From the NCBI GenBank assembly GCA_016787225.1, contig JAEUUY010000026.1:172414-236413 (forward strand): 64,000 nucleotides of DNA, read 5' to 3'. Origin of the DNA: Chitinophagales bacterium. GTDB taxonomy: Bacteria > Bacteroidota > Bacteroidia > Chitinophagales > JADJOU01. The position numbers were made by a program, and so were the translations under genes. Below the pieces are notes generated by a model, which was given only the letters and a program-made list of their open reading frames with translations, was not told where the DNA came from and ran no database searches. Below, one piece after another: positions 15,522 through 47,178 of this stretch; positions within the stretch are counted from its first letter, which is position 1; every line of letters begins with the position of its first letter.

Positions 15522-15821
15522 AATACTCAGCGGATGGATATAATTCGATCCTAGGTATTTATATTAACCTTATTGAAAGACATTACAAAATATAATGCCG
15601 ATCTTGAATTTTCTTAGTGAGGAACGAACTTAGAAATATTCGGTTCGGTATAACATATTTATACGTATATAACGACATAAATAAAAATAATACTATTAAA
15701 AAATATAATGAATTCGCAAACTGGAATATATGCTAAAAGTGCAGCAATCTTAGATTTAAAAATTAATTTACTAAACCAAAATTAATTTTGTAAAGCTGCG
15801 AATATTTAAGAGTTATCAACA

Positions 15822-16484
15822 ATGTTAAGCGAAAATAAAACTTACTTTTTGTTGTTAATAATTGCTTTCTTAAGTTGTGATCAAAATTGCATAAAAGATA
15901 GCAAAGTACTTAACGGAAAAGATCCAAAATCAGTGCAATACGAATGCGAAATAGATACTTCTGTTATAAAAGAAGATGACAATTTTTATCAAGTTATTAA
16001 ATTATCTGACACAAGTAGCTATTTAAAATGGGGAAACAAAGAAACTACATTCTATAGTAAAACTGAAATTGACAATTTTTATTTAGAAAAAGAAAGACTT
16101 CATTTTCAATGGATAAACAAAAAATTTATTTGTTTAGGAAGAAGCAGTGGAAGTGATATATGGTTAAATATTATTCTCCCATTAAAAGAAGATGCAAAAC
16201 CTAAAATTTATGAAAATGCCTTAGCATTTGACAAAGAAAATGGTCTTGTTATTTGTGAAGGATTTATTCACAAAGAAGCCCCATTAAAAGCAGAAAACAT
16301 TTATACTGGAGAAACGGAAATTCTAGGCAAAAACTGGACAAAATGTGATGCATGTTCTTTTTATCATTATTGTATCGATAGTATTAGTATAAAAAATAGA
16401 GAACTCTATGTAAAATGGGCAACACCTCATAAACTCGTAGAAAAACCAAAGTTTGAAACTAAAAGAGTAAAGTTAAAAATTTAG
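15822..16484 (+). CDS. Hypothetical lipoprotein (AT-rich ORFan cassette gene A)
   Basis: Lipobox-like LLLIIAFLSC; very AT-rich coding sequence; followed immediately by the AGATAACTG repeat element. Confidence 0.5.
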   Translation: MLSENKTYFLLLIIAFLSCDQNCIKDSKVLNGKDPKSVQYECEIDTSVIKEDDNFYQVIKLSDTSSYLKWGNKETTFYSKTEIDNFYLEKERLHFQWINKKFICLGRSSGSDIWLNIILPLKEDAKPKIYENALAFDKENGLVICEGFIHKEAPLKAENIYTGETEILGKNWTKCDACSFYHYCIDSISIKNRELYVKWATPHKLVEKPKFETKRVKLKI

Positions 16485-16671
16485 ACACAGCAGATAACTG
16501 CTGGTTCTCTAACAGCGAAGATGTATGAATCAGTCGCTCTAATAGAAGGACGACAAATTAGTTATTTACTATTCTTGAAATTATACGAAATAAAATCTGA
16601 CCTTTTCATTCCTAATAAGTTTATATTTGGTGTAAAAGAGAGCGTTATATTCTAATTTAATCGAAGACAGA

Positions 16672-17322
16672 GTGAAAATAGAAAGACCATTATCTGACAA
16701 GGAAATCAAAATTTTAAAACAAGACTTAAAACGAATTGACAAGCGAAAGTCTTTTCAAATTAGGGTTCTCGTTGTTTGGATACTTCTTGCAGTTATTATA
16801 GGGACATTTGTTTACTATAGACTTGAAATAACTAATGAAATATACCTATTAATTGGAACAGTTGTAATTTACATATTGATAGGCATTTGGAGTTTTATGG
16901 AAAACTATTTGAAAGAAAAGAAAGCAAGTAAGAATATTGATTTCGTTTTTGAGACAAACAAAGTAAAGTCAATTAAGGTGATGTCAAATGATTATATTGA
17001 ATTATCAGAAGTGGAAGACGAAGGGATAAATTACTTATTTCAAATTAATGACAATAAAATACTTTCTTTTGGTGGTCAGGACTTTTATACAACAACAAAC
17101 TTTCCGTCTGACAATTTTGAAATAGCAGTTTGTAACGGTCAACAGGGCGAAGTAGTGCTATTAGAAATCTACAATTACGGAAAGAAGATAAAACCGAAGA
17201 GGAAAATAACTGGAAAACAGAAATGGGACTTGATAGGAAGTGCTAATTATCCTGACCCAGAAAAGTTTGCTATTATAGACGGACAACTTGACAATATTGA
17301 AGCAATTATACGTGGAAAATAG
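16672..17322 (+). CDS. Hypothetical membrane protein (2 TM)
   Basis: Two hydrophobic helices after a Lys-rich N-terminus; no known domain. Confidence 0.45.
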   Translation: MKIERPLSDKEIKILKQDLKRIDKRKSFQIRVLVVWILLAVIIGTFVYYRLEITNEIYLLIGTVVIYILIGIWSFMENYLKEKKASKNIDFVFETNKVKSIKVMSNDYIELSEVEDEGINYLFQINDNKILSFGGQDFYTTTNFPSDNFEIAVCNGQQGEVVLLEIYNYGKKIKPKRKITGKQKWDLIGSANYPDPEKFAIIDGQLDNIEAIIRGK

Positions 17323-17373
17323 AATAACAGCACTTACCCAAAAATTGGAAATTCTTGCTTCTATAACAATGAA

Positions 17374-18096
17374 GTGCTTCGAAATCGGCACCTTCGGGTA
17401 ACTTTAAACGGTTATTATAATATAATGAGCAGTAGTGCACTCAAAGAAACGGATCCTTTAGATATTGACGAAGCAATAGAATGTATTGAAAAATCCTTCG
17501 GCATTCAGTTTATTGAAAGTGATTTGAAAACTATTAAGACGTTTGGCGAATTCTGCGAGTTAGTCAATAAAAAAACTAATTCTCACGATATGCAAGATTG
17601 TACAACTCAACAAACTTTTTATAAACTAAGACATGCATGTGAACTACTTCCGCTTAATTTATCTGAAACTATAAGTCCTAAAACAGAGTTAAAAATAGTA
17701 TTTCCTAAAAACCAGAGAAAAGACTTAATAAATAAATTTCAAGAAAAATTAGGACTGAATCTTGACATTTTACACCCTCCTGAGTATCTAGAAGTTGCTT
17801 TACTGATTTCAATTCTCGTTGGATTCGTTTTGTTATTTTTTACCTTTAAAATAGGTTTAGCCATATTTCTAAGTTCTTATATTGGCTTGTACATAGCGAA
17901 AAAACTAGGAAACAATTTTAGAATAGTGACCTTCGGTGATTTAGCGAACAAAGTAAAAAATGAAAATTACACCAGGTTTCGTAGCACTCCTCACACAACT
18001 AACAAACATGAAGTGCAGGACACAGTGAAACAAATATTTTGTACTAAATTAGGACTAAAAAGTGAGGATCTTAACGACGAAGCAAGTTTCGTTTAA
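17374..18096 (+). CDS. Hypothetical membrane protein with ACP-like N- and C-terminal segments (Pro at the carrier-Ser position)
   Basis: N-terminus DPLDIDEAIECIEKSFGIQF aligns to the ACP [20 protein letters not shown]. C-terminus VKQIFCTKLGLKSEDLNDEASFV aligns to the ACP helix I [23 protein letters not shown]. Central TM hairpin. Confidence 0.45.
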   Translation: MLRNRHLRVTLNGYYNIMSSSALKETDPLDIDEAIECIEKSFGIQFIESDLKTIKTFGEFCELVNKKTNSHDMQDCTTQQTFYKLRHACELLPLNLSETISPKTELKIVFPKNQRKDLINKFQEKLGLNLDILHPPEYLEVALLISILVGFVLLFFTFKIGLAIFLSSYIGLYIAKKLGNNFRIVTFGDLANKVKNENYTRFRSTPHTTNKHEVQDTVKQIFCTKLGLKSEDLNDEASFV

Positions 18097-18331
18097 TAAT
18101 ACAGCTAATTTTTAAAATGAGTTACACCATTTTAAATCCGCTAGAGATATAAACATAATGCCTAGGAAATATTTGATAGTCTTCTGAATGAGAGAGTAAC
18201 GGCGTTAAAATAAATTGCAGGATGGTAGAGAAAGATTTATCTTTGACAAAAAGTAGTCTAGCTAAGCCGCTCATTCCTTTGTTCAGAAGGCTACCGTGCG
18301 TTAGCATCAATTTTAAAGCGACACATCTCAA

Positions 18332-19243
18332 ATGAAAAAAAGACTTTCACTATTGTTCCTATTTTTGGGACAAATCTCATTTGGACAGACAGAAAAGCAT
18401 ATAAAAGTTCAAGGGACGAAATGTAGTATAATTCCCCCTAGTGGTTTTGCGACAGCGACAACTTTTAGCGGTTTTCAAAATACAGAAACAGGAGCTTCAA
18501 TAATGATTAATGAAATTCCAGGATCTTATCAATCTATAGTTGAAGGATTTACAGCGGAGGCCTTAAAATCAAAGGGTATGAAATTACTTACTAAACAAAT
18601 AATTGATTTTAATGGTTCAAAGGCTAATCTCCTTAGCCTTATACAAACTGCGTATGGGACAACTTATTTGAAGCAAATGTTAGTTTTTGGAGACACAATA
18701 GTTACCGTTTTAGTAAATGGAATTTATCCTGAAGCATCGAAAGACCTAGAACAAAAAATTAAAGACGCTATACTATCGACAGTATATAATAACTTACAAG
18801 ATGATAATCCAATTGAAGCTGCAACTTTTACAATAGACATCAAAGACACGGAATTCAAACTTATAAAGTACATGTCAGGTGGTTTGCTTTATTCGACAGA
18901 TGGGAAAATCCCAACTGAAAAACCTACATTGATTGTTGGGAATTCAATTGCAAAAGTTTCATCACAAAATTACAAGAAATATTCAGAGGAAAGACTTAGA
19001 AAACTACCTAGAGGCGAATTCAATGTAATCAAAGAAATCAATGAAGTAACTATAGATAATTTAAATGGCTTTGAAATTGTTGCTAATGGAAAAACTAAAG
19101 ACGAAAAAGTAGAATTGATTTATCAAGTAATGCTATTTAACGATAAAGGTGATTACTACATTATTGTTGGAAAGACTTCAGTTGACTTTGACAAATATTT
19201 GGAAAACTTCAAAAAGATAACAAAAACTTTCAAACGTAAGTAG
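18332..19243 (+). CDS. Hypothetical secreted protein
   Basis: Signal peptide MKKRLSLLFLFLGQISFGQ; 303 aa; no recognisable domain. Confidence 0.5.
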   Translation: MKKRLSLLFLFLGQISFGQTEKHIKVQGTKCSIIPPSGFATATTFSGFQNTETGASIMINEIPGSYQSIVEGFTAEALKSKGMKLLTKQIIDFNGSKANLLSLIQTAYGTTYLKQMLVFGDTIVTVLVNGIYPEASKDLEQKIKDAILSTVYNNLQDDNPIEAATFTIDIKDTEFKLIKYMSGGLLYSTDGKIPTEKPTLIVGNSIAKVSSQNYKKYSEERLRKLPRGEFNVIKEINEVTIDNLNGFEIVANGKTKDEKVELIYQVMLFNDKGDYYIIVGKTSVDFDKYLENFKKITKTFKRK

Positions 19244-20758: not shown

Positions 20759-21658
20759 TTATGATTTAGGGTGAGATAATTTATGTATATGTTTTAATTT
20801 TTCAATGCTGTTATGAGTATACACTTGGGTAGAAGCCAAAGAGCTATGACCGAGCAATCCTTTGATAGCATTGAGTTCTGCTCCTTCATTAAGCAGGTGG
20901 GTAGCGAAGCTATGTCGCAGGCTATGTGGACCAATGCCTTTTTGAGCGGTTACTTCTCCCAAGTATTTTTTTATAGTTCTATATACAAAATTGGGGTATA
21001 ATTTCTTGCCATTGTCTAGTACAAATACACTTCCATTTTCAGCTATGATGTCTCGACTACAAATGGCTGATTTGTATTCGTTCAACAGTTGTATCATCTG
21101 TTTACTTAATGGCACTAAGCGTTGCTTTTTGCCTTTGCCTAATACTGAAATCTCTTTTTTATGAAAATCAATATGGTCCCATTGCATTTCTATGAGTTCG
21201 CTTCGTCGGATACCACATTGATAAAAGGTCATGAACATGGCATAGTCTCTGTGAGATTCAAAACTTTCATCTGCTTTATTGATTTCTAATTTGTCTTTGA
21301 CATCAACTAATTTATGTTCAGCGATATCCTTTGGCAATCGCTTAGGTGCTTTGGGTCTAATAATTTTAGAAGTAGGATTCAGCGCTACCGTCCCATTTTT
21401 CAATTGAAATTTATAAAATGATTTGAGGCAAGATATTTTGCGATTTACTGTGGTAGCTGCATCTTGCTTTTCTATAAGTGATATCGTCCATGAACGAATC
21501 ATACTCGCATTGACAGTCAATAAATCCGTATGCTGAAAGTTTGCTTCTATAAAGGAATAAAACTGATTTAAGTCTTGTTCATAAGCAAGAAGTGTATTCG
21601 ATGACAGTCTTTTTTCATACTGTATATAGTTCAAAAATCGCTTTCTCACATCATCCAT
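20759..21658 (-). CDS. Tyrosine site-specific recombinase, XerC/XerD family (housekeeping; xer next to hpf is typical Bacteroidetes synteny)
   Basis: C-terminal HSLRHSFATHLLNEGAELNAIKGLLGHSSLASTQVYTH (R-H-R-Y catalytic box). Confidence 0.85.
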   Translation of the reverse strand: MDDVRKRFLNYIQYEKRLSSNTLLAYEQDLNQFYSFIEANFQHTDLLTVNASMIRSWTISLIEKQDAATTVNRKISCLKSFYKFQLKNGTVALNPTSKIIRPKAPKRLPKDIAEHKLVDVKDKLEINKADESFESHRDYAMFMTFYQCGIRRSELIEMQWDHIDFHKKEISVLGKGKKQRLVPLSKQMIQLLNEYKSAICSRDIIAENGSVFVLDNGKKLYPNFVYRTIKKYLGEVTAQKGIGPHSLRHSFATHLLNEGAELNAIKGLLGHSSLASTQVYTHNSIEKLKHIHKLSHPKS

Positions 21659-29463: not shown

Positions 29464-29658
29464 ATGAAACCAATCACAAAAAAAACAATAAAAATATCTT
29501 TAATCTCTGGACTTAGCTATGCATGCTTGAATACTGGTATAGATTATTTGAGAGAGATGGAAATTAGTTGGTCAAAATTTGTTATTTCTGGATTAGTTTT
29601 TGGATTTTTTAGTGCTATTTTAACTTGGTATAACCATAGAAAAATTGATTCTCAGTAG
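29464..29658 (+). CDS. Small two-TM membrane protein
   Basis: 64 aa, two hydrophobic segments. Confidence 0.3.
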   Translation: MKPITKKTIKISLISGLSYACLNTGIDYLREMEISWSKFVISGLVFGFFSAILTWYNHRKIDSQ

Positions 29659-30684: not shown

Positions 30685-30810
30685 ATACCGTAAACGTATT
30701 AGTAATAGTCCAATGACGCATGGCTCATTGCACTAAACAAATACAGCTACGGCATTTACCATAGCAAGGTTTTAAAATGGGTTGGACCATTTTAACACCG
30801 CTATTGGTAT
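30685..30810 (+). repeat. Copy 1 of a ~126 nt dispersed repeat (MITE/sRNA-like); internal hairpin AAAATGG-GTTGG-ACCATTTT
   Basis: ~94% identical over ~126 nt to 46910..47035 by hand alignment (8 mismatches). Confidence 0.8.
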
Positions 30811-30815
30811 TACAC

Positions 30816-30850
30816 AAAAAAGCCCCACATTTCTGTGGGGCTCAAAAAAA
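30816..30850 (-). terminator. Rho-independent terminator for the flotillin gene (hairpin GCCCCACA-TTTC-TGTGGGGC followed by a T-run on the minus strand)
   Basis: Perfect 8 bp GC-rich stem at 30822-30829/30834-30841, flanked by A-runs (T-runs on the minus strand). Confidence 0.7.
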
Positions 30851-30859
30851 ATATAAAGT

Positions 30860-33142: not shown

Positions 33143-33769
33143 GTTAGAAAAAATTTAATTGGTTAATAAAAAAGATTGGCAAAATGTTTTATACCGACGA
33201 TACATACTAAAAAGACGAATATAAAATTTCGTATCCTATGTATGTCGGCATTAAACCACAATATTTTTTGCCTAAATTTGATTTGTAAATGGTTTTACCT
33301 GAGTAACAGACCCTAAGTGTAAATCTTAAGAGGTAAAAATGTCTGTCGAATGTTCATAGCATGTAACAATTCGAATGCTAAAAATTAGGTTTTCTTGATG
33401 ACGTTAAATTTAATGAAAAGATTAACATAAGGTGATTTTGAAAAGTTCGAACAGTATGTACGAATTTACTAAATTTAACACCTTTAGCTTTATTTTATCA
33501 TATATAGTTCGTAGTACAAAACAAAGGAGTATTTAATACAACTTAAATAGCTAATCACCAAGAATATACACAAAATGCGAAAGTATCAATTATAAATATA
33601 TACACAAAATATGAAAGCGGTAAAATTTCTCTTTTTAGGATTTTATTTATTCATTATCTTTATCTTAAAATTAAAAACTTAAAATATACCGAAATTAGAA
33701 CTTTCGTATATTTGTCAATTGTATGCAAGCCTATTGACTACCACACTCCGACAAACAGGCAGACAAAAA

Positions 33770-34741
33770 CTAACCGATAAACAGCTGATTTGTGAAAAGA
33801 GAATGTGGAGCGGACACCAAATTAATATCAAACTTTAATGACGGCTCAATTCGGGAACTTGCATTGTGAATACGAAAAGAAATTTGCCAACCTTCATTCA
33901 AAGTGACCAACAAAGTTGTTTTCGAATTTTCTTGATAGACGACTTCAATTAAGCGACTTGGTAATTTCAGCTTTGGAACTTTTGCTTTTGGCTTGATATT
34001 TTCAAAAGGCAAATTCAAAGTTCCGTGTAAATTATATGCCTGAATTTCGACTTTATTACTGCCTTTTATGACTTTGTAGAAGTCTTGGTTTCCAATTAGA
34101 TATTCAATCAATTTTTCTGCAACAACACCAGTATTTTCAGCATCAAGACGCAACAACTCTTTTTTAAATGCATTTAAAATCGGGACATAAACAGACGTAT
34201 GATAATCTCCTAATGTATCCCATTTTTGAGTTGCCTTACTAGCGATTCTTAGCTTCGCTAAATTATCAAATACTGGCTTGACTTCATTGAAATATTCAAC
34301 CGAACAAGGAAAGCCCAACCACTTTTTACCAAAATCAATATCATTTGACAATCGAGAATGTTTAACGGCTCTATGATTATTTTTAGCAGAAATTCCAATC
34401 TCCCATTTCTGTAATGACCTAATCGCTAAAACATCACGAACATCGCCAGTTTGACCCACTTTATCAGACACGATTTCAAGTTGTAAAATATCTTTATCAC
34501 TTATTCCATTTGATAACCGCGGCTCAATATCAAGTAAAAAATTGACAGCAAAACTTGCTATCAAACTGTAATGACTTCTATCCTTTTCGCTAAAACTTAA
34601 AAAACATTTCAATGCAGTTTTGTAAGGGTCATTTTCAACAACCAAAACGGTTGTAAAGGCTTTCAGCCGTTCTAAAAACTCTTTCAATAACGCATATTCA
34701 AAGGCTTTTCCATTTATAGTTTGACTTGCAACTTTTGCCAT
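33770..34741 (-). CDS. Putative type II restriction endonuclease (cognate of the adjacent C5-MTase)
   Basis: 323 aa ORF whose ATG overlaps the MTase stop (TAATG) on the same strand; no recognisable motifs; assignment by context. Confidence 0.4.
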   Translation of the reverse strand: MAKVASQTINGKAFEYALLKEFLERLKAFTTVLVVENDPYKTALKCFLSFSEKDRSHYSLIASFAVNFLLDIEPRLSNGISDKDILQLEIVSDKVGQTGDVRDVLAIRSLQKWEIGISAKNNHRAVKHSRLSNDIDFGKKWLGFPCSVEYFNEVKPVFDNLAKLRIASKATQKWDTLGDYHTSVYVPILNAFKKELLRLDAENTGVVAEKLIEYLIGNQDFYKVIKGSNKVEIQAYNLHGTLNLPFENIKPKAKVPKLKLPSRLIEVVYQENSKTTLLVTLNEGWQISFRIHNASSRIEPSLKFDINLVSAPHSLFTNQLFIG

Positions 34742-35832
34742 TATGCTGTAATACTATTTACTATTTTATTCATTTTTTCACGGACAAGATTTCCATTAAG
34801 AGCATTTGCAAAACCATTAACAGCAATCTTTTTAGACGGCTTTATACTTTTTAAGTCGTCAAGAATTTTTCGTCCCAAAACTTCAGCCATCTTAACTGGG
34901 ACAGCATTCCCAATCATTTTATAACCAGCTACTACACTATTATAATGAAAAACAAAATCATCTGGAAAAGTTTGTATTCTGGCACATTCACGAACACTTA
35001 ACCTTCTATATAAACTTTCTTTTCCCTTTACAAACTCTCGAATATTTTGCTCAATAAATTTCATTTTTGGGGCTTGTGGGTGTAAAGGAGCGTGGCGACC
35101 ACCTGCTTGAATTGTAAAAGAAACTTCATCCCAAGACCTAACTCTATTTCTTGACATAAAAATAGACGAGAAACCACCAATCATATATTCGTGATTTGCG
35201 ACTTTACATTTATTTCCATTGGAATAATTACCTTCCTTTGCCGGCAAGACGTTATCTTTCAAATCGCTGATGACTTTATCAAGTGTTACTTTATTCCCAA
35301 GTGTTGTAGGTTTTGGAAACTCGAATTTTATTCCCAAGTCTTTTCTATAGCCAATAAAGAAAACACGTTTTCTATCTTGTGGGACACCATAATCCGAAAC
35401 ATTCAGTAACTCAAACGACAAATCATAACCAATGTCAGTAAACATTTGCTTTATGTTCGACAACGCTTCTTTGTGTGCAGGCAACAACATTCCCGACACA
35501 TTTTCAGCCAAGAAAAATTTCGGTTTTTTATCCGCAAGTATTCGCATAAACTCATAAAACAACTGACCCCTTTTATCAGCTATTCCACGTTTTGAACCTG
35601 CTTCTGACCAACTTTGACAAGGCGGACCCCCAATTATACCATCGCAATCAGGAACTTCACTTGACGGAATATCAACAATACTTCTTCTATCTAAGACAGT
35701 TTTTATATGGTTTTTCTCAAACGTCTCCCAAATTTCTTTATCGTATTCGTTTGCCCAAACGACATCAAAGCCAGCATTTTTAAAGCCTAAATCTAGACCG
35801 CCAGCACCTGCAAAAAATGAGACTATTTTCAT
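34741..35832 (-). CDS. DNA (cytosine-5)-methyltransferase, M.HaeIII-like
   Basis: Motif [13 protein letters not shown], motif [14 protein letters not shown], motif VI FLAENV, plus [33 protein letters not shown] and [11 protein letters not shown]. Strong resemblance to M.HaeIII (GGCC) from memory; not verified by search. Confidence 0.85.
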
Positions 35833-36080
35833 TTACAATTAACTTAAAGTTATGTTGACAAATTTAATTTATTTTGGCTAAATTTCGACCAGTAAAAATG
35901 AATAATTATCAACGGACGACAGAAAGGAGACCAGCTTATAACTGACAGTTTCGTGAAAGTGTGGGTGACGGAGTTCAAAAAATATGCATTATGGTTATGA
36001 AAGTTTGTATATTTGAGTAAAATTCAGTTTGGTTATGCCACACCTTCACGAAGCATGCCGGACGATAGCTGAGATTTATT

Positions 36081-36920
36081 ATGAAACAGCAGACCTTCAA
36101 ATTAGTATTTATTTTATTCCCATTTTTTCTAGGTTGTGGTAATGAAAAACCAAATTCCGAAAACGAGGAATCAATAAAAGCGATACAAACAGAAATTCCT
36201 CTGAGTGTAAAAGAAATGATTACTGAACCCGAAATTTTAAATTCAAATCTTGCAAAAGTTTTTAACCCAGACAGTATTGTAGGAGAAGAACAAATGATTA
36301 AAAGAAGTGTCCTTGGTTTTATAGGAAGTAACTTCCAAAGATTTGAAATTCATTTTACGTCGTTTGAAAAATCAAAAACAGACAACAGAACGTATTTTTT
36401 AAAAGGTAAAACAAGAGTAAAGAATAATATTTGTAATTTTACCGGTGAGTTGAAAATTTCAAACATTGAAATTGGCAAAGATTCCATTCGTCTTTTAGAT
36501 GAAATGGAATACTCAAAAAATCACACACTAATTACAATTACTTCAAAAATCATAATTAAAGAAAGTCCGAATGAAAAACATAGTGGTTACATTGAAGGAA
36601 CTTTATCTACAAGCGCGTTTGCTGACTCAACGAACGAAATTCATTATAACTCATTAGAATTCTTTTCTGATGGCTTCATCAACAATGCTTTTGAAGGCAA
36701 GTGGATTAAGTATAACTCAACCGAAACGAAAATCTGCAATTGGGGAGATTTTAGGATTCCAAAATCTGGTGATCTAGATATTGGGGCAGGTGAATTTAGC
36801 ATAAATGATAAGTATCTTAAAAACGGATGGGAAACATACCGATTACAATTCTATGTAGAGCCAAATAGTAAAGAAATGATAAATGCCCAGATAAGAGAAA
36901 ATGATAAATGGTGGGAATAA
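36081..36920 (+). CDS. Hypothetical lipoprotein (cassette-like ORFan)
   Basis: FILFPFFLGCGNE lipobox; flanked 5-prime and 3-prime by AGATAACTG-type repeat elements. Confidence 0.5.
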   Translation: MKQQTFKLVFILFPFFLGCGNEKPNSENEESIKAIQTEIPLSVKEMITEPEILNSNLAKVFNPDSIVGEEQMIKRSVLGFIGSNFQRFEIHFTSFEKSKTDNRTYFLKGKTRVKNNICNFTGELKISNIEIGKDSIRLLDEMEYSKNHTLITITSKIIIKESPNEKHSGYIEGTLSTSAFADSTNEIHYNSLEFFSDGFINNAFEGKWIKYNSTETKICNWGDFRIPKSGDLDIGAGEFSINDKYLKNGWETYRLQFYVEPNSKEMINAQIRENDKWWE

Positions 36921-37017
36921 AAAAACCTCAGATAACTGGCAGTTTGAAAAAATGCTTGGTGCAGTTTTTTATCGAAGTGTCTGAATTCTAATTATATTTG
37001 TATTTAAGCGAAAAGTC

Positions 37018-37848
37018 GTGCTTCCAAAAACACACTTCTTCAAGCTGCCGAAACGCTTTATCTACAAGCATTTGTGTAACCCCGAAAAAACTATGAATAA
37101 ACTAAAATCTCCAAAATATTTAAGTCTATCTATCGCTCTAATTGGAGTAGTAATTTTATGCTACTCTTTAACTCTTGATTTTTATACAGACCAAAAAGCT
37201 AAAGAAAAACTTGACTCAAGTGCAGAACTATCTACTGATGAAAACGTTTGGAAAGAAAAGTATTACAAAGAAGTAGCAAAACTAGAAACAAGCAAAAGAA
37301 AATTAATGGATATTGGAAGTGGTCTTACAATGTTTGGTTTATCATTACTTATATTCTTTATGCTTAAAAAGTCCGAAAGCATTAGCGATCTAAAATTCAT
37401 ACTAACGTTCTCAAAACTAAAAACTTTCATTCTTGCAAATCTAGTATGGAGTTTAATGCTTCCAGGAACATATTTCTACTATTATTTTCGCGGTATGAGA
37501 AATGATTATCCTTGGTTTGTAGACAGTATTGGCATTCCGATTATGTACCAAACAACAAGTATATTGATGGCATTTATTCCACTCAACATTGTCTTATTCA
37601 TTTCACTTTACAAAACCATACTGCCAACAAATTTGTTTAAAGAACTAACAGCAAAAAGCATATCAGAAAAAGTGTGGGAAGGCTTTTGGGCTTTATTACT
37701 CTTCATAAACATTATAGCATTGATAAGTTTCATTGCCGATGGAGACCATATTTCTATTCCGATAAACTTATTCTTTACATATATAATTCTAACATTAAGA
37801 GCAGGTAAAAAAAATTACTTTCAAATAAACAACAATGCCTGTAGATAA
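37018..37848 (+). CDS. Hypothetical polytopic membrane protein (cassette-like ORFan); true start probably MNKLKSPKYL near 37093
   Basis: Several TM helices; its stop codon TAA lies inside the repeat AGATAACTGCTGGTTTGAAG. Confidence 0.5.
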   Translation: MLPKTHFFKLPKRFIYKHLCNPEKTMNKLKSPKYLSLSIALIGVVILCYSLTLDFYTDQKAKEKLDSSAELSTDENVWKEKYYKEVAKLETSKRKLMDIGSGLTMFGLSLLIFFMLKKSESISDLKFILTFSKLKTFILANLVWSLMLPGTYFYYYFRGMRNDYPWFVDSIGIPIMYQTTSILMAFIPLNIVLFISLYKTILPTNLFKELTAKSISEKVWEGFWALLLFINIIALISFIADGDHISIPINLFFTYIILTLRAGKKNYFQINNNACR

Positions 37849-38087
37849 CTGCTGGTTTGAAGAAAGTCGGGCGGTGTGCTTCAAATAAAATCATGTCTTT
37901 ATGTGAAACTTTATATTTTTGAATAATCGTTATCTATGTGCTTATTTTTGAGGTAATATAAGTTTTTAGACGAACTAAAAACCTAAGAACATAAAACTTG
38001 TAATTATGCAAGTTAAAAGCACCCAGATTAATAAGTGCCTTAAGATTCGTAAGTACAATTATCAATTAAAATTTTTAATATAAAAGC

Positions 38088-38960
38088 ATGGGAACTCCTC
38101 CTTTTTCTAAACTTGTAGCTGGCACCATGTCATGGGGCAGCTGGGGAAAAAACTTAAACTCAAATCAGATGATTCAGCTCATGAATTGCTGTTTGGAAAA
38201 TGAGATAACTACATTTGATCATGCGGATATTTACGGCGGCTATACCACAGAGGCTTCATTTGGAAAGGCATTAAGTGAAAGTAATATCGACCGATCTAAG
38301 ATTCAACTTATTTCAAAGTGCGGTATTCAACTAGAATCCAATGAAAGAGGAAACAAAGTCAAACACTACAATTATTCTAAGCAATACATTATTTGGTCTG
38401 TAGAACAATCCCTTAAAAACCTTGAAACGGACTATCTCGATTTGCTTTTATTACATCGTCCTAGTCCTTTGATGCTTGCAGATGAAATTGCAGAAGCTAT
38501 TGAAGAACTTAGAAAAGATGGAAAAATATTGGATTTTGGCGTTTCTAATTTTACACCGTTTCAATCAGATTTGATAGAGACGAAAATAAAAATAAGTTAT
38601 AATCAAATTCGATTTTCTCTCACTCACTTCGAAGCAATGTTAGACGGAAGTATAGATCATATGCAAGTTCACAATATAAGACCCATGGCGTGGTCACCAA
38701 TGGGGAATATTTTCAAAAATGAAGATGAGAAAGCGAAAAGAGCAAGCAAAAAAGCAAAAGAACTTTCTATAAAATATGATGTACCGATAGAAGTTTTACT
38801 TCTAGCTTGGATTTTAAAACATCCTGCTCGAATATTGCCAGTTTTTGGTACGACCGACCACATGAGAATTAGTCAATTGATGAAAGCAACGACTTTAAAA
38901 TTAGAGGAACAAGATTGGTTCACTTTATGGTCAGAAAGTGCAGGAGTTAGAGTTCCATAA
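38088..38960 (+). CDS. Aldo/keto reductase family oxidoreductase
   Basis: GTMSWGSWGKN...FDHADIYGGYTTEASFGKAL and LHRPSPL patterns of the AKR family. Confidence 0.8.
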   Translation: MGTPPFSKLVAGTMSWGSWGKNLNSNQMIQLMNCCLENEITTFDHADIYGGYTTEASFGKALSESNIDRSKIQLISKCGIQLESNERGNKVKHYNYSKQYIIWSVEQSLKNLETDYLDLLLLHRPSPLMLADEIAEAIEELRKDGKILDFGVSNFTPFQSDLIETKIKISYNQIRFSLTHFEAMLDGSIDHMQVHNIRPMAWSPMGNIFKNEDEKAKRASKKAKELSIKYDVPIEVLLLAWILKHPARILPVFGTTDHMRISQLMKATTLKLEEQDWFTLWSESAGVRVP

Positions 38961-46909: not shown

Positions 46910-47035
46910 ATACCGTAAGCGTATTAGTAATAGTCCAATGTCGCATGGCTCATTGCACTAAACAAATACAGATACGGCATTTACCATAGCAAGGTTTTAA
47001 AATGGGTTGGAACATTTTAAAACTGCTATTGGCAT
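46910..47035 (+). repeat. Copy 2 of the ~126 nt dispersed repeat, embedded in a ~285 bp segment bounded by a perfect 16 bp inverted repeat
   Basis: Matches 30685..30810; flanked by GGGCTTGCTGAATAAC (46859-46874) and GTTATTCAGCAAGCCC (47159-47174). Confidence 0.8.
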
Positions 47036-47178
47036 AAGTATGCATTTTAACCCAAAAATATTTGACTACTCAGAAACACACCAACTACTTCGCCATCTGC
47101 ACCTCGCAGTATTATTATACAGCGTCGGCTTGATGGCTCGTATTTGGCGCATTTCTGAGTTATTCAGCAAGCCCTACT

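What the first reader, a model, noticed from the sequence alone, without database searches (positions are those of the whole stretch)
35900..37940. Array of cassette-like ORFan genes separated by a conserved AGATAACTG-N3-GTTT... element bounded by inverted 7-mers
Three copies of one element lie in direct orientation and bracket two AT-rich ORFan genes (a lipoprotein at 36081-36920 and a membrane protein at 37018/37093-37848). The copies are S4 at ~35934-36000, S3 at ~36929-37063 and S2 at ~37843-37935. Hand alignment gives S4 CTTATAACTGACAGTTTCGTGAAAGTGTGGGTGACGGAGTTCAAAAAAT, S3 CAGATAACTGGCAGTTTGAAAAAATGCTTGGTGCAG, and S2 TAGATAACTGCTGGTTTGAAGAAAGTCGGGCGGTGTGCTTCAAATAAAAT. Each starts with (A)GATAAC and ends 55-120 nt later with a near-perfect reverse-complement GTTATCT (S2 exact; S3 TTTATCT; S4 GTTATGA). 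S2 also holds an inner inverted pair TTTGAAG/CTTCAAA. In S2 the gene's stop codon is the TAA inside the motif; in S3 the motif TAA is in frame just after the stop. An ORF followed by an imperfect palindromic boundary element has the topology of gene cassettes (integron attC-like), but the sequence is not canonical attC and no integrase is adjacent. Cassettes sitting right next to an R-M system suggest a defence/immunity-gene shuffling locus.
Basis: seen in the sequence. Interest (0 to 1): 0.72.

Follow-up and report, generated by a model that had tools for sequence, protein, structure and literature searches.

The report
Promoter-bearing hairpin repeats between accessory genes
A Flavobacteria-like chromosome carries a small family of 95-165 bp hairpin-forming repeats, each holding a promoter, which sit only between strain-variable accessory envelope-protein genes and mark where gene content changes between strains. 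They resemble integron sites in shape but do not behave like them.

Summary
ATAACTG-N3-GTTT occurs exactly three times in 64 kb, all at the stated sites and on the + strand. Profile searches add two diverged copies at 16489-16650 and 18165-18306.

Every copy has the same layout:
- a 5' core (AGATAAC, 5 nt, GTT...);
- a loop of 73-126 nt holding a Bacteroidetes -7 promoter box (TAnnTTTG) that faces the downstream gene;
- in the four copies with a cassette gene downstream, a 3' arm complementary to that copy's own 5' arm (11 pairs changed on both sides; 0/500 shuffles reach the score);
- then a GTTATCT-like end.

All five copies lie in two accessory islets that are absent from related genomes. 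Strains differ in gene content there, and the breakpoints fall inside the elements.

It is not an integron. The element body does not travel with the upstream ORF. Breakpoints fall in three different conserved blocks. The 7-mers miss the attC consensus, and the only recombinase in the window is Xer-like.

The genes are not ORFans, and no defence role is supported. The family matches nothing in Rfam, plasmids, phages, or the two pattern scans of genomes and metagenomes.

Best reading: portable promoter-plus-hairpin junction modules that also serve as recombination anchors for swapping single-gene units. How the swapping happens is unresolved.

The parts
16489..16650 (+). S1: family copy between ORF 15822-16484 and ORF 16672-17322. 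R'' AGATAAC 16492-98; L'' GTTCTCT 16504-10; -7 box TATATTTG 16622-29; L' AGAGAGC 16637-43; R' GTTATAT 16644-50.
   Evidence: (nhmmer E 5.7e-11)
18165..18306 (+). S0: diverged family copy upstream of ORF 18332-19243. The 5' motif has decayed (ATATTTGATAG), but it keeps its own arms: TAGTCTTCTGAATGAG 18177-92 with CTCA 18270-73 plus TTCAGAAGGCTA 18282-93. -7 box TATCTTTG 18238-45; R' GTTAGCA 18300-06.
   Evidence: (E 6.3e-7 with S4 as query)
35934..36070 (+). S4: copy upstream of the lipoprotein gene. R'' TTATAAC 35936-42; L'' 35948-64; -7 box TATATTTG 36008-15; L' CCACACCTTCACGAAGC 36038-54; the homologous R' is GATAGCT 36064-70.
   Evidence: I13; 0/300 shuffles
36929..37063 (+). S3: copy between the lipoprotein and membrane-protein genes. 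R'' AGATAAC 36930-36; L'' GGCAGTTTGAAAAAATG 36938-54; -7 box TATATTTG 36993-37000; L' CACTTCTTCAAGCTGCC 37033-49; R' TTTATCT 37057-63.
37842..37936 (+). S2: terminal copy between the membrane-protein gene and the aldo/keto reductase gene. R'' AGATAAC 37843-49; local hairpin TTTGAAG 37856-62 / CTTCAAA 37879-85; -7 box TATTTTTG 37914-21; R' GTTATCT 37929-35. The long-range 3' arm is lost.
36081..36920 (+). Lipoprotein gene (279 aa, lipobox FFLGC). It belongs to a widespread Bacteroidota family and has a predicted small beta-barrel fold.
37093..37848 (+). Multi-pass membrane protein gene (251 aa), with 23 homologues. Another strain (L076) has a 199-aa gene in its place.
15822..19243 (+). Islet A: four co-oriented small envelope-protein genes (220-aa lipoprotein, 216-aa and 223-aa membrane proteins, 303-aa secreted protein) with S1 and S0 between them. 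The whole islet is absent from relative L079, where dnaB abuts the NMO gene.
33770..35832 (-). HaeIII-type restriction endonuclease (33770-34741) and C5 methyltransferase (34741-35832). They belong to the same strain-variable islet B. The block 33717-37129 has a single mismatch between two strains, while its flanks differ by 1-3%.
15783..15815 (+). Possible degenerate 3' half of a further copy upstream of ORF 15822: -7 box TAATTTTG 15783-90 followed by GAGTTATCAACA just before the ATG.
   Evidence: by eye; not statistically tested
20759..21658 (-). The only tyrosine recombinase in the window. It is XerC/XerD-like and sits next to hpf. This is context only; nothing shows that it acts on S.
   Evidence: XerC model 285.6 bits; integron-integrase model 108 bits against a cutoff of 265

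Best explanation
S is a lineage-specific family of portable junction modules. Each module is an imperfect palindrome of 95-165 bp. Its loop carries a Bacteroidetes-type promoter aimed at the gene on its right. Its conserved blocks (the 5' core AGATAAC-TGNNN-GTT, the -7 box, and the 3' GTTATCT-like end) recur at every boundary between accessory single-gene units.

Shown:
- There are five homologous copies, all on the + strand.
- All five lie inside two accessory islets that relatives lack.
- A -7 box sits at the homologous position in all five.
- In the four copies with a cassette gene downstream, the arms pair in one register and show compensatory changes.
- Gene content differs between strains, and the breakpoints lie inside S.

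Inferred:
(1) The loop box is the promoter of the downstream gene, so each unit is expressed wherever it sits.
(2) The arms pair across the promoter, either in read-through RNA or in single-stranded or supercoiled DNA. This would insulate or process transcription arriving from the upstream unit.
(3) Because the same short conserved blocks flank every unit, recombination between S copies replaces, adds or deletes units. These copies may lie within one genome or on incoming DNA. The exchange is homology-driven, or possibly uses an unidentified recombinase acting at the 5' core.
For: - Motif statistics.
- Homology of the five copies: nhmmer E 1.6e-8 to 4.3e-17 with the family profile, which was built from these same five copies. 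Independent support: S4 used alone as the query finds S0 at E 6.3e-7.
- A TAnnTTTG box at the aligned position in all five, 42-166 nt before the downstream start codon. The window-wide density of this box is about 1 per 1.3 kb per strand.
- Arm pairing in register: G11-C in 5/5 copies and T12.G in 4/5; 11 pairs changed on both sides; covariation 0.395 against 0.181 +/- 0.047 in shuffles (0/500); at most 0.252 when the register is slid.
- Tests of each copy's inverted repeat: S4 0/300, S0 14/300, S3 14/300.
- Islet status: L079 has dnaB next to NMO and trmD next to AKR; L078 has Band7 and AKR 515 nt apart.
- Strain polymorphism with breakpoints in S: L076 against the window from 'TAACTGCTGG'; L057 after 'AGATAACTGG'; L073 after the -7 box of S1; L057's upstream copy is a mosaic of S3-like and S4-like parts.
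- Terminal copies with no cassette gene after them (S2, and L078 7004-7127) have lost the long-range helix. The L078 copy has also lost the -7 box. This suggests the helix is kept only where a cassette gene follows.
- It is not a terminator. A canonical terminator exists at about 30817-30853.
- No Rfam family matches.
Against: - No transcription data exist. The promoter is a consensus match only, and no clear -33 TTTG is conserved.
- The alignment used for covariation was registered by hand on five sequences, so it is biased toward the structure.
- Copy number and distribution outside this 64-kb window are unknown.
- The pattern scans of GTDB genomes and JGI metagenomes found no other family members. 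The family may therefore be very small.
- Intergenic regions are where rearrangement breakpoints survive in any case, so finding breakpoints in S could partly be a selection effect.
- A hairpin that encloses its own promoter has no established precedent for the insulating role proposed here.
Confidence: 0.45

Rival explanations
1. S is a true site-specific cassette system, integron-like or rAID-like. The 5' core AGATAAC-TGNNN-GTTnnnn is a tyrosine-recombinase core site: two inverted half-sites around a 5-nt spacer. Units of the form [S body + gene + next R''] are excised and inserted there by a recombinase encoded elsewhere, or by the Xer-like enzyme.
For: - The core is the most conserved part of S.
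- Its geometry matches the left half of a verified attC. aadA1 attC of R100 reads GTCTAAC-AATTC-GTTCAAG and lies right after the stop codon. S3 reads AGATAAC-TGGCA-GTTTGAA, 8 nt after the stop.
- Two independent strain junctions fall at R''/spacer.
- One assembly starts exactly at position 10 of S2.
- The relative L057 has a minimal palindromic site, GATAAC-TGGAA-GTTATC, at the junction.
- R''/R' show a compensated A-T to T-A change in L078.
- The structure is conserved while the sequence varies, as in attC (Cury et al. 2016, PMC4889954).
Against: - Other junctions lie at the -7 box (L073) and just after R'. There is therefore no single crossover point.
- The S body does not move with the upstream ORF.
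- The right-hand spacer varies from 0 to 12 nt.
- There is no integron integrase. The only recombinase is Xer-like, next to hpf, and convergent with islet A.
- Only five diverged copies are known.
Confidence: 0.2
2. S is purely a cis-acting transcript element. It would be an intercistronic or leader RNA hairpin (a processing, stability or insulation site, or a structured regulatory leader) shared by a set of envelope-protein genes. It would have no role in DNA rearrangement.
For: - All copies are co-oriented with the flanking genes and abut stop codons.
- A U.G pair is conserved at position 12 in 4/5 copies.
- The + strand RNA folds better than the - strand in 5/5 copies. For S4 the values are -44.7 and -31.9 kcal/mol.
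- The helix has decayed in the two copies that have no cassette gene downstream.
Against: - Inside the helix, G.U-type and A.C-type mismatches are about equally frequent. The strand asymmetry may therefore only reflect base composition.
- S4 has no co-oriented upstream gene to supply the 5' arm in a transcript.
- This reading does not explain why S is restricted to accessory islets, nor why the copies are mosaic.
- No Rfam family matches.
Confidence: 0.17
3. S is a decayed MITE-like or REPIN-like selfish repeat that happens to carry an outward promoter, like the Correia elements of Neisseria. It would accumulate in dispensable islets.
For: - It has the right size, terminal inverted repeats, an internal promoter and an intergenic location.
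- The genome does hold another palindromic repeat family, with copies at 18097-18160, 30743-812 and 46965-47037, two of them about 93% alike.
- De Bruijn contigs break inside or next to S in several samples.
Against: - No target-site duplication was seen by eye.
- The three copies that align without gaps (S4, S0, S2) are only 46-61% identical.
- All five copies share the orientation of their genes.
- There are none among the roughly 40 core-gene spacers of the window.
- Arms that differ between copies stay complementary, which drift after transposition would not preserve.
- No transposase or RAYT gene lies in the window.
Confidence: 0.1
4. S elements are invertible promoters (invertons). They would give phase-variable expression of surface proteins, as in gut Bacteroidales.
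For: - Inverted repeats flank a promoter.
- The downstream genes encode lipoproteins and membrane proteins.
Against: - The invertible segment would be only 73-126 bp.
- The arms carry conserved mismatches and unequal spacers.
- No invertase gene is adjacent.
- The same orientation is seen in every independent assembly fetched (L001, L060, L070-L073, L076).
Confidence: 0.05

Closest known systems
Integron attC sites and CALIN arrays (clusters of attC sites lacking an integrase)
   Same: - An imperfect palindrome sits directly after the stop codon of co-oriented small genes.
- The outer 7-mers carry the conserved AAC/GTT triplets.
- The left half has the same R''-5 nt-L''(GTT..) geometry as the verified aadA1 attC.
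- The inner arms vary in sequence but stay complementary.
- The central region of 73-126 nt is close to the 20-100 nt range reported for the attC variable terminal structure (PMC4889954).
- No integrase is nearby, as in CALINs.
   Different: - The 7-mers AGATAAC/GTTATCT miss the RYYYAAC/GTTRRRY consensus (recalled from my own knowledge) at two positions each.
- The right-hand spacer is 0-12 nt rather than about 5.
- The centre is largely unpaired and holds a promoter.
- The element body stays with the downstream context rather than travelling with the upstream ORF.
- Breakpoints are not confined to R'.
rAID-1 arrays of Bacteroidales (Ross et al. 2019, bioRxiv 10.1101/471110; PMC12247911)
   Same: - Both occur in Bacteroidota.
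- Both are arrays of co-oriented short genes (about 100-300 codons).
- Both have conserved repetitive intergenic motifs that have been described as integron-like.
- Both are strain-variable.
   Different: - rAID-1 is defined by a XerD-family recombinase at the 5' end, co-oriented with the array. Here the only recombinase is a housekeeping-type Xer next to hpf and convergent with islet A.
- The genes here show no homology to immunity proteins.
- The arrays here are tiny (2-4 genes).
Correia repeat-enclosed elements of Neisseria, and 'putative mobile promoters' (both recalled from my own knowledge)
   Same: - They are intergenic elements of about 100-160 bp with terminal inverted repeats.
- They carry promoter elements and can be co-transcribed with neighbouring genes.
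- Homologous promoter DNA appears upstream of unrelated genes.
   Different: - Correia elements are present in hundreds of near-identical copies, in both orientations, with a TA target duplication.
- None of that is seen here.
REP/REPIN palindromes
   Same: - Two inverted units form a long hairpin.
- They lie at the 3' ends of genes.
- The structure is maintained.
   Different: - No RAYT gene is present.
- The copies are far more diverged than those of active REPIN populations.
- A promoter sits in the spacer.
Invertible promoters of Bacteroides
   Same: Inverted repeats flank a promoter upstream of surface-protein genes.
   Different: - The segment is much shorter.
- No invertase gene is present.
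- No alternative orientation was observed.

Membership tests
Integron attC / CALIN | Conserved AAC triplet in R'' and GTT triplet in R' | tested here: met
   R'' ends in AAC in S1-S4. R' begins with GTT in S0, S1 and S2. In S3 it is TTT and in S4 GAT.
Integron attC / CALIN | Full core-site consensus RYYYAAC / GTTRRRY (consensus recalled from my own knowledge) | tested here: not met
   AGATAAC has purines at Y2 and Y3. GTTATCT has pyrimidines at R5 and R6.
Integron attC / CALIN | R and L boxes separated by short unpaired spacers of similar length on both sides | tested here: not met
   The left spacer is 5 nt in all five copies. The right spacer is 0 (S1, S2), 7 (S3), 9 (S4) or 6 (S0) nt when counted from the L' and R' coordinates, or about 12 nt in S3 if only the 7-bp L box is counted. 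The verified aadA1 attC has 5 and 5.
Integron attC / CALIN | The L box is complementary within each site while its sequence varies between sites | tested here: met
   11 pairs have changes on both sides; 0/500 shuffles reach the score. The alignment was registered by hand.
Integron attC / CALIN | The site belongs to the upstream ORF's cassette, and the crossover is at R' | tested here: not met
   The S2 body is unchanged behind a different upstream gene in L076. The element after the lipoprotein gene differs in L057 from position 9 onward. Other junctions lie at the -7 box.
Integron attC / CALIN | Score above threshold with the IntegronFinder attC covariance model; an IntI gene with the extra domain for a complete integron | not testable with these tools
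   The attC model is not available here. No IntI lies in the window: the integron-integrase HMM scores 108 bits against a cutoff of 265. The other ORFs are housekeeping genes.
rAID-1 | XerD-family recombinase gene at the 5' end, co-oriented with the array | tested here: not met
   The only recombinase (20759-21658, - strand) is convergent with islet A and 14 kb from islet B. It has the conserved hpf/Xer backbone context also seen in L079.
rAID-1 | Two or more co-oriented short low-GC genes with conserved intergenic motifs | tested here: met
   There are four genes in islet A and two in islet B. GC is 30-32% against 33-37% elsewhere. The S motifs are shown.
rAID-1 | The genes are homologues of interbacterial immunity proteins | tested here: inconclusive
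   Pfam, NCBIfam and PADLOC give no significant hit. The lipoprotein fold has no PDB match. Dedicated immunity-protein profiles were not available.
Invertible promoter (inverton) | Inverted repeats flanking a promoter | tested here: met
Invertible promoter (inverton) | Both orientations present in populations; an invertase gene nearby | tested here: not met
   All seven independent assemblies show the orientation found in the window. No invertase gene is present. Read-level data were not available.
MITE (Correia-like) | Terminal inverted repeats with a target-site duplication; many similar copies in both orientations | tested here: not met
   No duplication was seen at the ends by eye. There are five copies, all on the + strand; the three that align without gaps are 46-61% alike. 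The genome-wide count cannot be tested.
Intrinsic terminator | Short GC-rich stem, small loop and a U tract | tested here: not met
   0 terminator-like sites in 35700-38200. The genome has a canonical terminator at about 30817-30853.
Any Rfam RNA family | Covariance-model score at or above the gathering threshold | tested here: not met

The most novel reading that the evidence does not exclude
A previously unrecognised gene-cassette system in Flavobacteriales in which the cassette is 'promoter-first'. Each unit would start with a hairpin-forming recombination site that also contains the unit's promoter. Exchange would occur at a tyrosine-recombinase-type core (AGATAAC-N5-GTT) at the 5' edge of the hairpin. 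It would be catalysed by a host Xer-type or other recombinase encoded elsewhere. This would be functionally analogous to integrons and rAID-1 but built differently.
Probability: 0.2. Interest if true: 0.8.

Novelty: new variant of a known kind. Interest (0 to 1): 0.52.

Why it matters
If the elements are what they appear to be, they show how streamlined environmental Flavobacteria add, express and swap single accessory genes without visible mobile-element machinery. Each gene would come with a portable promoter inside a hairpin, and the same element would provide the joints at which units are exchanged.

That would extend the integron and rAID idea of structured junctions between accessory genes to a new design and a new lineage. 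It would also give a sequence handle for finding hypervariable islets in metagenome-assembled genomes.

If the hairpin instead acts only on RNA, it is a new structured intercistronic element in a phylum whose gene-expression signals are poorly mapped.

Tried and rejected
- A GTDB species-representative scan with GATAACTGNNNGTTTGAARAAA gave 55 single hits. About 35 of them are one orthologous Pseudomonas locus, and the Bacteroidota hits are coding or show no extended similarity. The source genome is not in that collection.
- A JGI metagenome scan and an IMG/VR scan with a degenerate pattern covering all three copies gave 5 and 2 hits. The 5 metagenome hits were inspected and look like chance; the 2 IMG/VR hits were not inspected.
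- blastn against plasmids and phages found nothing.
- Rfam at gathering and at E-value thresholds found nothing relevant.
- A generic scan for '12-mer inverted repeat flanking TAnnTTTG' is not enriched over shuffles (5 of 97 boxes against about 4 of 80). Only the family-specific test is informative.
- The strand-asymmetry argument for an RNA structure was set aside as weak, because G.U-type and A.C-type mismatches in the helix are balanced.
- Comparison with dif/Xer sites could not be completed, because no Bacteroidetes dif sequence is available as text.
- Structure prediction of the lipoprotein gave a confident small beta-barrel but no informative fold match.
- More distant homologues of the two genes are not flanked by S. 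L059 has its own, different repeated intergenic module, and L061 has a plain terminator.
Full report

The exact pattern ATAACTGNNNGTTT occurs three times in the 64-kb window, at 35938, 36932 and 37845, all on the + strand. With one mismatch allowed there are six hits against 2.05 expected, and no shuffle reaches six.

The three intergenic regions align over about 90 nt. In S2, the 7-mers AGATAAC (37843-49) and GTTATCT (37929-35) are exact reverse complements, and the inner pair TTTGAAG/CTTCAAA is present. In S3 the pair is AGATAAC/TTTATCT.

However, alignment with a relative's copy places the homologous end at GATAGCT, 36064-70.

**2. The family is larger and has a defined anatomy.**

nhmmer with S4 alone finds a fourth copy at 18166-18306 (E about 1e-6). 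A 15-nt exact match to S2 pointed to a fifth copy at 16489. A profile of the 5' halves then recovers exactly five copies in the window (E 1.6e-8 to 4.3e-17) and no others on either strand. Those scores are inflated, because the profile was built from the same five copies.

I number positions from the A of ATAAC. Every copy then has the following parts:
- R'' at positions -2 to 5 (AGATAAC);
- a 5-nt spacer (TGNNN);
- an arm L'' starting G11-T12;
- a loop of 73-126 nt;
- an arm L' ending in GC in the four copies that keep a long-range helix (S2 ends ..ATC);
- 0-12 nt of spacer;
- an R' resembling GTTATCT.

At the homologous loop position, all five carry the Bacteroidetes -7 promoter consensus TAnnTTTG, facing the downstream gene:
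- S1 16622-29;
- S0 18238-45;
- S4 36008-15;
- S3 36993-37000;
- S2 37914-21.

These boxes lie 42-166 nt before the next start codon. The consensus itself comes from established knowledge of Bacteroidetes promoters. No transcript data are available.

**3. The arms pair, and they covary.**

In S0, S1, S3 and S4 the 5' arm pairs with that copy's own 3' arm in the same register. G11-C holds in 5/5 copies, T12.G in 4/5, and positions 13-17 pair in all four copies that keep a long-range helix (up to position 20 in S0, S3 and S4, and to 27 in S4), although the arm sequences differ between copies.

On a hand-registered alignment, 11 of 21 pairs have changes on both sides. The covariation score is 0.395, against 0.181 +/- 0.047 in shuffles (0/500), and at most 0.252 when the register is slid. 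The registration biases this toward the structure. The 5' arms, however, are aligned by homology without gaps.

The individual inverted repeats score as follows against shuffles: S4 0/300, S0 14/300, S3 14/300, S1 30/300, S2 77/300.

S2 has lost the long-range arm. So has a sixth copy, found in a sister species (L078 7004-7127; reciprocal nhmmer E 4e-4 and 6e-5). Both are terminal copies with no cassette gene after them. The L078 copy has also lost the -7 box. In that copy R''/R' read ATATC/GATAT, a compensated A-T to T-A change.

**4. What S is not.**

- It is not a terminator. No terminator-like site lies in 35700-38200, while a canonical terminator sits at about 30817-30853.
- It is not a described RNA family.
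- It is not on known plasmids or phages.
- It was not found by pattern scans of GTDB genomes, JGI metagenomes or IMG/VR.

**5. Genomic context.**

The window is an ordinary Flavobacteria-type chromosome segment. It encodes pheS, pth, dnaB, trmD, rimM, purD and type IX secretion substrates.

All S copies lie in two islets:
- Islet A (15822-19243) has four co-oriented genes: a lipoprotein, two membrane proteins and a secreted protein. S1 and S0 lie between them.
- Islet B (33.7-37.9 kb) has a HaeIII-type R-M pair, then S4, the lipoprotein gene, S3, the membrane-protein gene and S2.

Neither 'ORFan' is one. The lipoprotein family has at least 175 members in Flavobacterium, Pedobacter, Mucilaginibacter and others. 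The membrane protein has 23 homologues. None of the islet genes matches a Pfam, NCBIfam or PADLOC family significantly. The lipoprotein models as a small beta-barrel (pLDDT 83) with no PDB fold match.

The only recombinase in the window (20759-21658, - strand) is XerC/XerD-like. It sits in the conserved hpf-xer backbone and scores 108 bits on the integron-integrase model, against a cutoff of 265.

**6. Comparative evidence.**

- In relative L079 (AKR 79% identical), dnaB directly abuts the NMO gene and trmD directly abuts AKR. Both islets are therefore lineage-specific additions.
- In sister species L078 (81%), Band7 and AKR are separated by 515 nt with no cassette.
- Within the species, L076 (98%) has a single 199-aa gene where the window has the R-M pair, the lipoprotein and the membrane gene. 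L076 becomes identical to the window from 'TAACTGCTGG' of S2 onward.
- In L057 (lipoprotein 87% identical), the sequence after the lipoprotein gene follows the window through 'AGATAACTGG'. It then continues 'AAGTTATCG' into an unrelated 319-aa gene. This leaves a minimal palindrome GATAAC-TGGAA-GTTATC.
- L057's upstream copy is a mosaic. Its interior resembles S3 and its last 25 nt resemble S4.
- L073 follows the window through S1 up to the -7 box and then diverges.
- Between the window and L060, the block 33717-37129 (R, M, S4, lipoprotein, S3) has one mismatch, while the flanks differ by 1-3%.
- Several Logan contigs begin or end inside S. Nine contigs begin inside S4', L001 ends in S2, and L077 starts at position 10 of S2. 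This fits population-level variation or repeats there.
- No assembly shows an inverted loop.

**7. Interpretation.**

The integron analogy, however, fails on behaviour:
- The body of S stays with the downstream context when the upstream gene changes (L076).
- The element after a given ORF is not constant (L057).
- Breakpoints fall in three different conserved blocks: R''/spacer twice, the -7 box once, and just after R' once.

Geometry is shared only on the left side. The verified aadA1 attC of R100 reads GTCTAAC-AATTC-GTTCAAG...CTTAACT-CAAGC-GTTAGAT and starts directly after the stop codon. S3 reads AGATAAC-TGGCA-GTTTGAA...TTCAAGC-(12 nt)-TTTATCT.

I therefore favour a junction-module reading (0.45). 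Under it, each S supplies the promoter for the unit to its right. Its arms pair across that promoter in read-through RNA or unwound DNA. Its short conserved blocks, repeated at every boundary, act as the anchors at which units are replaced by recombination.

The alternatives are:
- a dedicated site-specific system acting at the 5' core (0.2), which is the most novel reading;
- an RNA-only role (0.17);
- a decayed MITE or REPIN (0.1);
- invertons (0.05).

**8. Novelty and score.**

The closest described systems are integron attC/CALIN arrays and the rAID-1 arrays of Bacteroidales. rAID-1 arrays are defined by a XerD-like recombinase, co-oriented short genes and conserved intergenic motifs (bioRxiv 10.1101/471110; PMC12247911). 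S shares the array topology and the principle that structure is conserved while sequence is not. It differs in having a promoter inside the hairpin, in its association with the downstream unit, and in lacking an associated recombinase.

I rate it a new variant of a known kind, with interest 0.52. The family is real, structured and tied to gene-content variation. It is, however, known from very few copies in one lineage, and its mechanism is unproven.

Noticed in passing
window 30743-30812, 46965-47037, 18097-18160: A second, unrelated palindromic repeat family of about 70 nt (..TACCATAGCAAGGTTTTAAAATGGGTTGGACCATTTTAACACCGCTATTGGTA..). Two copies are about 93% alike and the third is diverged and lies directly 5' of S0. 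The pattern TTTAAAATG-N7-CCATTTTAA gives 3 sites against 0.01 expected. Logan contigs L001 and L060 break inside it. It is REP-like or MITE-like.
   Followed up: partly
window 33143-~33480: About 330 nt of non-coding DNA upstream of the Band7/SPFH gene is strongly conserved, even in the sister species L078 (AKR 81% identical), while the DNA beyond it is variable. It has no Rfam match. It may be a leader or a small RNA.
   Followed up: partly
window 33717-37129 compared with L060: The HaeIII-type R-M pair plus S4, the lipoprotein gene and S3 show one mismatch between two strains whose flanks differ by 1-3%. This indicates a recent transfer or recombination tract ending near S3.
   Followed up: partly
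L076 2986-3585; L078 9486-10000: The site between Band7 and AKR has alternative occupants. One strain has a single 199-aa gene of unknown function. A sister species has an empty 515-nt spacer that nevertheless contains TAGATAAC about 34 nt before the AKR start codon.
   Followed up: partly
L059 4270-4419, 5270-5421, 5780-5860: A more distant relative of the lipoprotein gene (61% identical) is bracketed by a different repeated intergenic module (..CGCTCGCGCAGCGCTC..AATCAC-N14-GTGATT.. plus an A/T-rich promoter-like block). Lineage-specific repeats at accessory-gene boundaries may therefore be a general habit in these bacteria.
   Followed up: no
window 35840-35852: A palindrome TTAAC-TTAAA-GTTAT lies 8-20 nt upstream of the C5-methyltransferase start codon. 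It could be an operator of the R-M system, or chance: TAAC-N5-GTT is expected about 7 times per strand in this window.
   Followed up: no
window 29466-29657: An unannotated small ORF (63 aa, hydrophobic) lies in the 293-nt gap between the DUF4919 gene and the 310-aa membrane-protein gene. This region also differs from the sister species L078.
   Followed up: no
L061-L064 (right ends): Four contigs from different samples that carry a 48%-identical homologue of the membrane protein all stop exactly 99 nt after its stop codon. This suggests a repeat or a variable junction there too. No S motif is present.
   Followed up: no
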